NCBI GenBank assembly: GCA_044450345.1 | Contig: JBIOIY010000070.1 | Span: 1-11,761 of the forward strand | DNA from: Thermodesulfovibrionales bacterium | Lineage (GTDB): Bacteria > Nitrospirota > Thermodesulfovibrionia > Thermodesulfovibrionales > UBA6898 | Length of the DNA stretch: 11,761 nucleotides | Reading direction: 5' to 3' | In this document: piece after piece, positions 9,001-11,761 of the stretch | How the letters are laid out: every line of letters begins with the position of its first letter | Position numbering within the stretch: the first letter of the stretch is position 1 | Made by a program: the position numbers

Positions 9001-11761
9001 TCCTCTTTATATCAGAAAACTTTACTGAGGAATATCGGCAAAAGAAACCGCTCCGATACCATACCCGCCGCGTCCCCTGCGACGACCGAGAATGAGCGAG
9101 CGTGCTGTCCTCATGCGTAAGTTCTCGATGAAGATTAGATATGCCCTACTTGATTCTCGCGTGTGAGACTATTGAGTCAGCGAGAACTCGACCTCTTGAC
9201 CGCTGACAGGACACCGGAATCTCAGTGAAACGGCGGTGAGCTTCAGCCCTTCCGCATTCTTGTTCCCTTTTCCGTATTTCGGGTCCCCCATCACAGGATG
9301 TACTATCATCTCAAAGTGCCTCCGAATCTGGTGCAGCCGCCCGGTCCTGATGACGATATCGACAGTCGACGTATTTCTTTCCGGATCATAAGACAGGACC
9401 TGATATTCCGTCATCGCAGACTTGCCGTCGAGAGGAAACTCCACCGTGCCCTTCAAGTCTTTTTCACCCAGATCGCCCAGGACCTCGGCACGGTATCTCT
9501 TTGTGATGAGATTTTTTTGAAAGAGCTCTGAAAGTCCGGCAGCAGCGGGCTTGTCATGGGCGATGAGCATGACGCCGGAGGCCTCGCGGTCCAGGCGATG
9601 GACGAGAAATACCTTTCTCTGAGGACTGAAGAAAAGCTCCGCATGTCTCATAAGGGAACAGTGATCGCCATACAGGGTACCCTGCGCAGTCATCCCCGGC
9701 GGCTTATACCATACGCTGTAATTCCCGAGGTCGCCCAGACAATCTGCAGAAGGAGGCGTTAGCGAGAGTATTTTTTCGTCATAATGCAGTTCGATATGGT
9801 CACCTTTTTTGAGAACTGCGGTCGCCCTCCTCAGCCTGTTCATCCCGCCCCTTTTTTTCCTCAACCAGACCGCCCCTTTATTCATTGCGTCCTTCACTTT
9901 ACTTTTGGAGAGACCGGATTTCGAAACAAGATAGTCCGAGGCCGTTGCGCCTATATCCGAATCGAGGTCTATTTTCAGGTCCATTTTGTTCACCGCATAG
10001 TCTACCATCACCGGGCAGGTACCGGCCATTGAAGTACCATCCTGTTTATGGTAGCATTCTGTATTGCCCGGGGGCATTGAGAATCAAATCAAAAGGATAA
10101 CAGGGCCGGGCTATTAAAACCAGGAGGCGATAACCCTTGGCAGAAGTCTATCATGCGCTGGGTCTCAACATGCATCAGCCGCTCGGAAACCTCCGCGAAC
10201 TGCATAACTCCAGCGAATCCTGGGAGGCCAGGCAGATCCTCTGGTGCTATGACAGACCGACGCGGATGCTTGAAGGATACGAGGACGTGGCGCGGCTGCA
10301 TATGAGTTTTTCAGGCACGCTCCTGAAACAGCTCGAGGATACTGCCGTAAGAGAGACCTTCCACGATGTGGTGAACATACACGATTTTCTGGAGCGCTTC
10401 AAGAGGTCTCACATCGAATTCACAGGTACCGGACTCTACCATCCGGTATATCCGCTGATACCTCCGGACGACTGGGACGCCCACACATCCTGGTGGCTGG
10501 GCCTGGGACGCCATCTCCTCGGCAGGGAACGGTTCCAGGGGTTCTGGCCGCCTGAAATGGGTTTTTGCATGGAGATGATCCCGATGCTGAAGCGTCACGG
10601 GTATCGCTATGTTCTTGTTGACTCGTGGTACATCAAGCCGAGGCGCGAGATGCGATGGGAAGAGCTTCGGTACAGGCCGTATATTGCACGCTATGAGGGA
10701 GAAGAGATTATTGTTGTGCCGCGGGACCGTGAACTTTCCGACGCCCAGGAATCAGGGCTGGACCCCGGGTGGTTTCAGTATGAGATATATGAAAGGACGA
10801 AGTGGTGCGACTTCCCGGCGCTCGTCACTACCTGGACGGACGGAGAAAACGGCGGCTGGTTCCGGACGACCCATACGGAAAGCGGGTTCTGGGGCCACTT
10901 TTACCATGCCATATTAAACAGGTATCGCGCGGGCACACTTGGATTTACCCCTGTCCATATCAGCGAATACCTCGACAGGTACCCTCCGGAGGAGGAAGTG
11001 GAGGTGCACCGCGGCGCGTGGAACACAGGGCACCATTGGGGCGGAGACTTCACGCAGTGGACCGGCTCACTCTTGCAAAAAAGGGGCTGGGACGAGGTCC
11101 GCAACGCAAGCGCCTACTATCAGAAGGTGAAGAAAAGCTTTGACGCGCACAGGGACGAAGCATCTGATCCCGAGGACGTCCGTCAGCTAATCACGGAGGC
11201 CTACGACCATATTCTCATTTCTGAGACCAGCTGCAATTTCTATTGGGGAAGCAGCCGGGTGCACCGCTCTTTCGATGACCTTGAGCAGGCATATTATCTT
11301 CTCGACACTGCTATGGACCTTCTCGGAGGAGGAGAGGCCGATAGCGGTTAAAAAAGTAATGAGTGCAGTCCTTCCAAGAAGGCCGGCATATCGGGTATAA
11401 TCTGTTATTCATGCATTTACCTTTTTCACAGGAGGTCGTGAGTTATGAACCTTAAGCCACTTCAAGACTGGGCAGTAATCAGAAGATCGGAAGCCGAGGA
11501 GAAGACCTCGGGCGGAATTATTATACCGGAGGTCGCGAAAGAGAAGCCTCTGGAAGGCGTAATTGTCGCGATCGGCCCGGGCAGATATACGCTCGAAAAG
11601 GGAAAAGAGAAAGAAAAAAAGAAGAAGTTCGTCCCGACCGTTCTTAAACCCGGCCAGAAGGTCATCTACCAAAAATATGCCGAAAGGGAGATAGAGCTGG
11701 GCGGCGAGGTTGTTACGCTCGTCAGAGAAGAAGACATCCTCGGCACGGTAGAGGATTACGC

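What a model noticed while it worked through the whole genome (the two positions that open the first line are those of the whole stretch)
11445..11761. GroES co-chaperonin paralog with a long histone-H1-like lysine-rich tail
A GroES paralog outside the groESL operon runs off the end of C70 and continues on C22:1-655, where it extends into a 170-aa Lys/Ala/Pro/Thr tail (52 Lys, net +48). The GroES mobile loop is intact. Family members carry such tails, suggesting a co-chaperonin tethered to nucleic acid or polyphosphate; the gene calls split it into two partial genes.
Evidence so far: C70 end and C22 start overlap by 141 nt; g02997/g01728 share the overlap. Paralog matched in 31 of 61 relatives, 27 of 36 in the family; 21 of 22 orthologs with a tail have >=24% Lys, whole in single contigs such as G004 (263 aa) and G001 (276 aa). 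TSGGIIIP loop kept plus a basic roof insertion.
(Added by a program. Inside this text positions count along the whole contig: contig position 1 is position 1 of the stretch shown here. "Call 12" and the like, gene names such as g00115 and contig names such as C1 are that model's own, and its searches are not shown. The text may have been shortened before it was handed on; [...] marks where a part breaks off. The agent that wrote the report below was given it as the finding of a first reader that could run no searches.)

Follow-up and report, generated by a model that had tools for sequence, protein, structure and literature searches.

The report
Second GroES lid with polylysine tail
This bacterium carries a second, separately encoded copy of the GroES chaperone lid with a long, floppy, strongly positive tail that probably sticks it to DNA or RNA, which would place protein folding at the cell's nucleic acids; nothing has been tested in the lab.

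Summary
The window's GroES-like frame continues through a unique 141-nt assembler overlap into C22, giving 276 aa: a GroES fold plus a 171-aa disordered tail (52 Lys, net +48), the most Lys-rich 100-residue stretch in the genome. Relatives carry it whole on single contigs.

It belongs to a Nitrospirota subfamily of orphan GroES paralogs (Trp9, long basic roof, intact GroEL-binding loop). None of 72 loci lies beside groEL, and none of 73 genes has a CIRCE box; most tailed genes have a perfect -10 box. Two lineages carry the tail; the members examined from nine other families lack it.

The polyphosphate option is disfavoured: neither PPK1 nor PPK2 was found in 66 genomes searched. My best reading is a non-heat-shock second lid for the single GroEL, held on DNA or RNA by its tails (0.5). 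Binding to GroEL or nucleic acid is not shown, and similar tails sit on DksA, SWIB and other proteins of this genome.

This scan noted a polylysine-tailed GroES before, in Bdellovibrio relatives (GroES2), and Helicobacter HspA is a known tailed GroES. Verdict: new variant of a known kind, interest 0.55.

The parts
11396..11401 (+). Perfect -10 hexamer (TATAAT); the best -35 candidate 18 nt upstream matches only 3 of 6
   Evidence: Read. Exact TATAAT within 100 nt upstream of 44 of 56 tailed genes against a shuffle mean of 3.8 (max 10), and 1 of 80 ordinary groES. The consensus scan did not call a promoter here.
11430..11436 (+). Ribosome-binding site (AGGAGGT), 8 nt before the ATG
   Evidence: GGAGG-like sites precede most orthologs.
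11445..11761 (+). 5' part of the gene: complete GroES domain (residues 1-105); the frame runs off C70 and continues on C22 to a stop at C22:653-655
   Evidence: AlphaFold model of the 276-aa G001 ortholog has an eight-stranded GroES core whose best PDB matches are Cpn10/GroES.
11469..11471 (+). Trp9, signature of the paralog subfamily (Arg or Lys in the solved GroES/Cpn10 chains aligned)
   Evidence: Invariant in alignments A1, A2 and A4; 115 of 120 long homologs match the motif.
11505..11528 (+). Mobile loop core TSGGIIIP; the hydrophobic triplet is the GroEL-docking element of GroES (recalled knowledge)
   Evidence: Triplet present in 72 of 73 paralogs; aligns with the loop of solved Cpn10 chains.
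11580..11642 (+). Extended basic roof hairpin (residues 46-66, net +5)
   Evidence: Roof segment median 24 aa and net +3 in 54 tailed paralogs, against 14 aa and -1 in 75 ordinary GroES; also long and basic in tail-less paralogs.
11621..11761 (+). 141-nt overlap with C22:1-141; it begins right after a run of seven A in the roof-loop codons
11760..11761 (+). First bases of the 171-aa tail, which lies on C22:140-652 (77-aa mixed linker, then 94 aa with 37 Lys and no acidic residue). A terminator-like hairpin follows at C22:670-689, then a convergent citrate synthase gene
   Evidence: the tail has no helix or strand and pLDDT about 45-55 in the model.
10137..11351 (+). Upstream neighbour, glycoside hydrolase family 57; context only
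   Evidence: shared by 5 same-genus loci only.

Best explanation
A second, stand-alone GroES that still caps the cell's single GroEL but is held on nucleic acid by its tails. Shown: GroES fold, docking loop and Tyr78 kept; purifying selection; monocistronic-looking gene with a -10 box and no CIRCE; one groEL per genome; disordered tail of net +48. Inferred: (1) it forms a seven-membered ring like other GroES, giving about +336 in tails plus seven basic roof loops; (2) the tails bind DNA or RNA without sequence preference, as the H1-like tails of AlgP and PhaF do; (3) the ring therefore gathers on the nucleoid or on RNA-rich zones, as DksA and SWIB proteins with similar tails plausibly do; (4) there it docks on GroEL through the mobile loop and provides a heat-shock-independent lid for clients met at DNA or RNA, or is parked until needed. 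The tail is a later amplifier on an older basic-roofed paralog.
For: Fold and loop. Core dN/dS 0.11 over 11 pairs. One Cpn60 match in 55 of 61 genomes; two full-length copies only in G027; one in G000. No groEL in 72 of 72 paralog loci. CIRCE upstream of 0 of 73 paralogs against 53 of 80 ordinary groES, although G000 has hrcA and a CIRCE before its operonic groES. 115 of 120 long homologs have tails with at least 20% Lys (these were selected for length, not for Lys). Tail lysines are kept in 214 of 250 aligned positions against 415 of 619 for other residues; tail dN/dS 0.17-0.24. RNA-run contigs from a peat metatranscriptome cover core and tail but not the downstream gene (weak). Tested tails of like composition bind DNA or RNA. 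A chaperonin on the nucleoid has precedent in M. tuberculosis GroEL1.
Against: No binding data of any kind. Tail length runs from 31 to 202 aa, 17 of 73 paralogs examined have none, and two of those lie inside the tailed own-order group. Close alleles differ by large in-frame deletions (230 and 151 aa), and their tail substitutions are mostly non-synonymous (5 of 7 and 8 of 10). The tail has no KPAA repeat and stays below the Pfam HC2 cut-off. Similar tails occur on several unrelated proteins of the genome, including ribosomal L17. No conserved neighbour points to a nucleic-acid role across lineages. dN/dS in low-complexity sequence is biased downward by alignment.
Confidence: 0.5

Rival explanations
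1. The function lies in the specialised core: an alternative lid (Trp9, long basic roof) for particular GroEL clients. The tail is a lineage-typical basic appendage with a weak, generic role such as solubility, holding acidic clients or loose localisation.
For: Members examined from nine families are tail-less but keep Trp9 and the roof. Tail length is very variable and close alleles lose 46 or 125 residues. Many proteins of this genome carry such tails. Lambert et al. proposed an alternative lid for Bdellovibrio GroES2.
Against: The tail is kept in 28 of 29 own-order loci and, Lys-rich, in 23 of 24 loci of a second family. Lysines are preferentially conserved. It is the most Lys-rich stretch in the genome.
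Confidence: 0.25
2. A GroES-fold nucleoid or RNA-condensing protein that no longer works with GroEL: the ring is only a scaffold that displays seven H1-like tails and bridges or compacts nucleic acid.
For: Orphan gene uncoupled from HrcA control. Oligomer plus basic tail is the PhaF/AlgP design. About +336 per ring if heptameric.
Against: The docking triplet is kept in 72 of 73 paralogs and Tyr78 is invariant in the tailed alignments, which a mere scaffold would not need. G000 has two HU/IHF-family genes already.
Confidence: 0.15
3. The ring caps another seven-fold machine such as ClpP, as chloroplast co-chaperonins do, and the tails tether that protease to nucleic acid.
For: The best PDB sequence matches are algal co-chaperonin chains of entry 7EKQ, a ClpP complex.
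Against: Those scores are raised by two tandem domains. No clp gene appeared among the neighbours scanned. Not otherwise tested.
Confidence: 0.05
4. The tail tethers the co-chaperonin to polyphosphate granules, as AlgP localises to them.
For: AlgP precedent.
Against: PPK1 and PPK2 found in 0 of 61 relatives at E<=1e-20 and 0 of 5 second-family genomes at E<=1e-3; control genomes ring in 7-8 of 14.
Confidence: 0.04
5. Assembly artefact: GroES and tail come from different loci joined at a contig break.
For: The gene is split over two contigs, and the break follows an A-run.
Against: Unique exact overlap; whole genes in many single contigs; independent assemblies run across the C22 start.
Confidence: 0.01

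Closest known systems
Bdellovibrio bacteriovorus GroES2 (Bd3349; Lambert et al. 2012, PMC3464611, passages read)
   Same: Second groES gene apart from the groES1-groEL pair, not heat-induced, GroEL-contact residues conserved; annotated at 224 aa with about 107 residues of repetitive sequence.
   Different: Its extension precedes the GroES domain and was dismissed as a wrong start; here it follows the domain, so no start error can explain it. The paper does not give the composition (the word lysine does not occur); that it is polylysine rests on an unchecked earlier scan note. I could not obtain the sequence, so orthology is untested. Bd3349 is expressed late in predation.
Helicobacter pylori HspA / HpGroES (PMC5116745, abstract read)
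   Same: GroES with an added C-terminal functional segment (domain B).
   Different: Short, His-rich and nickel-binding, ending near residue 118, against 31-202 Lys-rich disordered residues on an extra paralog here.
Canonical GroES/Cpn10 (PF00166; PDB 1AON, 1P3H)
   Same: Fold, mobile loop, Tyr78 equivalent.
   Different: Trp for Arg/Lys at 9, roof about 10 residues longer and basic, no operon with groEL, no CIRCE, long tail; below every NCBIfam GroES cut-off (94 against 96 bits at best).
AlgP and PhaF of Pseudomonas (PMC9239181, PMC12818456; abstracts and one discussion section each)
   Same: Folded N-terminal domain plus disordered Lys/Ala/Pro C-terminal tail.
   Different: Their tails are KPAA repeats; this tail has none and is richer in Thr and Val with KK pairs. 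The carrier here is a chaperonin lid.
Chlamydial Hc2-type H1-like proteins (Pfam PF07382)
   Same: Lys/Ala/Thr/Val/Pro composition; weak profile match in one ortholog (E 1.8e-5).
   Different: All below the cut-off (25.4 against 40 bits at best); no match for the G000 tail at E<=1.
M. tuberculosis GroEL1 as nucleoid protein (PMC2731897, abstract read)
   Same: A chaperonin paralog associated with DNA.
   Different: There the large subunit binds DNA; here the lid carries the basic segments.

Membership tests
GroES/Cpn10 co-chaperonin | Cpn10 profile match and fold | tested here: met
   Pfam 85.4 bits against cut-off 21.1; Foldseek best hit Cpn10, E 6.8e-9, probability 1.0.
GroES/Cpn10 co-chaperonin | Mobile loop with hydrophobic triplet (recalled feature) | tested here: met
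   GGIIIP here; 72 of 73 paralogs.
GroES/Cpn10 co-chaperonin | Seven-membered ring | not testable with these tools
GroES/Cpn10 co-chaperonin | Binds GroEL and supports folding | not testable with these tools
Canonical heat-shock groESL operon GroES | Adjacent to groEL | tested here: not met
   0 of 72 paralog loci hold groEL (flanks mostly 1.5-2 kb, some cut by contig ends).
Canonical heat-shock groESL operon GroES | CIRCE/HrcA control where the genome has it | tested here: not met
   0 of 73 against 53 of 80 ordinary groES, among them 2 of 3 from Nitrospirota; hrcA present in G000.
Canonical heat-shock groESL operon GroES | NCBIfam GroES cut-offs | tested here: not met
   Below all 15 cut-offs, narrowly for NF001531; the operonic copy passes two.
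H1-like bacterial proteins (HC2, AlgP, PhaF tails) | Disordered Lys/Ala/Pro-rich polycation | tested here: met
H1-like bacterial proteins (HC2, AlgP, PhaF tails) | KPAA repeats or HC2 profile above cut-off | tested here: not met
   0 KPAA; HC2 below cut-off in 6 of 6 tailed orthologs scanned and absent for the G000 tail.
H1-like bacterial proteins (HC2, AlgP, PhaF tails) | Binds DNA or RNA | not testable with these tools
   Inferred from composition only.
Bdellovibrio GroES2 | Orthology (shared clade, Trp9, basic roof) | not tested
   No Bdellovibrio sequence could be reached.
Bdellovibrio GroES2 | Repetitive extension before the GroES domain | tested here: not met
   The extension here is C-terminal; Bd3349 description.
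Helicobacter HspA | His-rich nickel-binding C-terminal domain | tested here: not met
   2 His and no Cys in 171 residues.
Cpn20 tandem co-chaperonins | Two GroES domains | tested here: not met
   One domain in 120 of 120 long homologs.

The most novel reading that the evidence does not exclude
Bacteria have repeatedly (one or two times in Nitrospirota, and separately in Bdellovibrio relatives at the other terminus) turned a spare GroES into a seven-armed polycation that condenses DNA or RNA and recruits GroEL to it: an unrecognised class of nucleoid-associated co-chaperonin that links chromosome compaction or RNA condensates to local protein folding.
Probability: 0.2. Interest if true: 0.85.

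Novelty: new variant of a known kind. Interest (0 to 1): 0.55.

Why it matters
GroEL/GroES is usually treated as a freely diffusing heat-shock machine. A dedicated lid with seven polycation arms would give a simple way to place folding at the nucleoid or at RNA, and would add a GroES-fold protein to the list of bacterial chromatin proteins. It also suggests that the repetitive extension of Bdellovibrio GroES2, set aside as an annotation error, may be real; that organism is cultured and genetically tractable. Databases name these proteins plain GroES, and I found no description of the Nitrospirota subfamily in nine literature searches (open-access library only).

Tried and rejected
Complex prediction of the GroEL apical domain with the paralog core was not available, so there is no structural verdict on binding.

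The genome-collection scan with the core alignment filled up with ordinary GroES and gave only three Nitrospirota loci among 80; it cannot show range.

Attempts to reach a Bdellovibrio GroES2 sequence failed: no readable supplement (supplementary alignments, if any exist, could bear on orthology), five unclassified or deltaproteobacterial genomes gave seven strong, ordinary-scoring Cpn10 matches that I did not cut out, and long relatives of the third GroES type were MshEN fusions instead.

Phage records hold no match above 45% identity among the 25 of 30 listed. ESM Atlas showed three clusters, all Cpn10, commonest Nitrospirota. Rfam found nothing at the locus. Cluster look-up of 10 proteins returned no names.

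One or two origins of the tail is unresolved: a single tailed clade is not rejected (p-AU 0.31) and not recovered.

The pooled dN/dS contained one pair read on the wrong strand; one search replaces it. RNA run X19 covered only short pieces, likely from other organisms. RNA contigs cannot show strand or level, and DNA may be in such libraries. Passages of PMC10490939, PMC12037070 and PMC5904260 said nothing on tailed GroES. Polyphosphate tethering and mis-assembly were considered and rejected as above.

Full report
Observation. The frame at 11445-11759 encodes a complete GroES domain and is open at the end of C70. The last 141 nt of C70 are identical to the first 141 nt of C22 and are unique in the genome; 141 is the commonest contig-end overlap of this assembly (40 of 52 records), so it is an ordinary assembler break. 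The frame continues for 217 codons on C22, which implies 276 aa, with a 171-aa tail of 52 Lys, 9 Arg and 13 acidic residues. Relatives carry the gene whole. Contigs of two DNA runs from different studies cover C22:1-900 in one piece and extend past its start, with no indel in the gene.

Anatomy. The AlphaFold model of the G001 ortholog has a beta-strand core over residues 9-102 and no secondary structure after residue 105; the best structural matches are Cpn10/GroES. The core keeps the mobile-loop triplet and Tyr78, but has Trp at position 9 where the five solved sequences shown have Arg or Lys, and a longer, basic roof. The tail has a mixed linker and a distal part with 37 Lys in 94 residues and no acidic residue. 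Across 91 homologs with tails of 80 aa or more, the first 35 residues have median net +1 and the last 35 have +15. It is the most Lys-rich 100-residue window of 9255 frames in G000. A perfect -10 box and a ribosome site precede the gene and a terminator-like hairpin follows it; the consensus scan did not call a full promoter.

Family. Source names place the homologs in Nitrospirota, with one record named Acidobacteriota. A profile of the core matched 87 of 301 genomes of the phylum at E<=1e-30, including 6 of 8 in the own family and 50 of 57 in family f22, and none in several other families. On a 53-row tree the paralogs are separated from ordinary GroES at 100/99 support. Of 73 paralogs examined, 56 are tailed (G000 included) and 17 are not. 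All 24 f22 loci examined, of 50 matches, have tails, 23 with at least 20% Lys. The 14 members examined from nine other families end right after the domain but keep Trp9 and the long roof. So the specialised core is older or wider than the tail. Whether the tail arose once or twice is unresolved. G000 and two f22 genomes have dsrA, two genomes with tail-less copies do not; five genomes are too few for a trend.

Partner and control. G000 has three GroES-like genes and one groEL. In 61 relatives, 55 have one Cpn60 match, four have two (only G027 two full-length ones) and two have none. None of 72 paralog loci holds groEL. None of 73 paralogs has a CIRCE within 200 nt, against 53 of 80 ordinary groES, most of them from other phyla; G000 has hrcA and a CIRCE before its operonic groES. 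Exact TATAAT lies upstream of 44 of 56 tailed genes (shuffle mean 3.8). I infer a housekeeping-type promoter outside heat-shock control. If the protein works as a lid, it must share the one GroEL with the operonic GroES.

Selection. Over 11 pairs, dN/dS is 0.11 in the core, 0.17 in the first 30 tail residues and 0.24 beyond (0.49 against the core dS); lysines are kept in 214 of 250 aligned tail positions, other residues in 415 of 619. Alignment of low-complexity sequence flatters these numbers. Against strong constraint: tails range from 31 to 202 aa, near-identical alleles lack 46 or 125 residues, and tail differences in two close strains are mostly non-synonymous. Charge and lysine content look conserved, not sequence or length.

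What the tail binds. Polyphosphate is unlikely: PPK1 and PPK2 were found in 0 of 61 relatives and 0 of 5 f22 genomes while controls rang; these are samples of partly incomplete genomes. DNA and RNA remain. The AlgP tail binds DNA and the PhaF tail binds RNA, but both are KPAA repeats, which this tail lacks. A control cuts both ways: in G000, Lys-rich segments of similar make-up sit on a SWIB protein, two DksA/TraR proteins, a DUF4912 protein, L17, small Cys-containing proteins and a stand-alone 61-aa frame. DksA acts on RNA polymerase and L17 on the ribosome (recalled), which fits a tag for nucleic-acid-rich places, but it also shows that such tails are common in this lineage.

Mechanism. Most likely (0.5) the protein forms a ring that still docks on GroEL, while seven tails (about +336) hold it on DNA or RNA. 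Ring formation, GroEL binding and nucleic-acid binding are all inferred. That a C-terminal extension is compatible with a GroES ring is suggested by tandem Cpn20, which works with GroEL, and by HspA. Rivals: specialised lid with a generic tail (0.25), GroEL-independent nucleic-acid scaffold (0.15), cap of another ring such as ClpP (0.05), polyphosphate tether (0.04), artefact (0.01).

Comparison and novelty. Lambert et al. 2012 describe Bdellovibrio GroES2: a second groES, not heat-induced, expressed late in predation, annotated at 224 aa with a repetitive region before the domain that they took for a start error (passages). The parts are therefore known: GroES paralogs, tailed GroES, H1-like tails on folded carriers. 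The Nitrospirota subfamily and its C-terminal polylysine form were not found in nine searches of the open-access library. I rate it a new variant of a known kind, interest 0.55; the bold reading, a repeatedly evolved nucleoid-bound co-chaperonin, has probability 0.2 and would deserve 0.85.

Noticed in passing
L004:1474-1836 (-), G000:C72: A third GroES-like type (120 aa, about 30% identical to the others). In 19 of 21 long homologs it is fused behind an MshEN domain (PF05157; c-di-GMP binding is recalled), one record named Nitrospirota. In G009 the unfused gene lies directly upstream of the tailed paralog.
   Followed up: partly
L002:1492-1755 (-), G000:C35: The operonic GroES of this genome is only 87 aa and lacks the roof hairpin, whereas the copies fetched from G027 and G047 (96 aa) have it.
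   Followed up: partly
G000 and 60 relatives; 5 genomes of family f22: Neither polyphosphate kinase family was found in any genome searched.
   Followed up: partly
L164-L172 (G000:C29, C59, C8, C1, C54, C2, C14): Lys-rich tails on a SWIB protein, two DksA/TraR proteins, a DUF4912 protein, L17 and three small Cys-containing proteins, plus a stand-alone 61-aa H1-like frame at C1:209833-210024 (-) with no Pfam match.
   Followed up: partly
L161:3064-3384 (G004:C8): G004 has a second, tail-less copy of the paralog (107 aa, 88% identical in the best stretch) besides its tailed one; no tail lies downstream in any + frame.
   Followed up: partly
L158:1047-1676 and 20 other f22 loci: An ORF with an HsdR N-terminal-like domain (PF13588) lies beside the tailed gene in 21 loci of family f22.
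   Followed up: no
L023, L024, L025, L028, L029, L032, L033, L035, L121: One subgroup has short tails built of 7-9-residue repeats around an ALQKK/ALEKK-like motif, unlike the long tails.
   Followed up: no
window 2-4944: A cytochrome c oxidase gene cluster (SCO-like protein, subunits I-IV, haem O synthase; names from my reading of the translations, not scanned) in a genome that also has dsrAB.
   Followed up: no
L173:1236-1262 (G000:C15:31735): Second CIRCE of the genome, directly before hrcA.
   Followed up: yes
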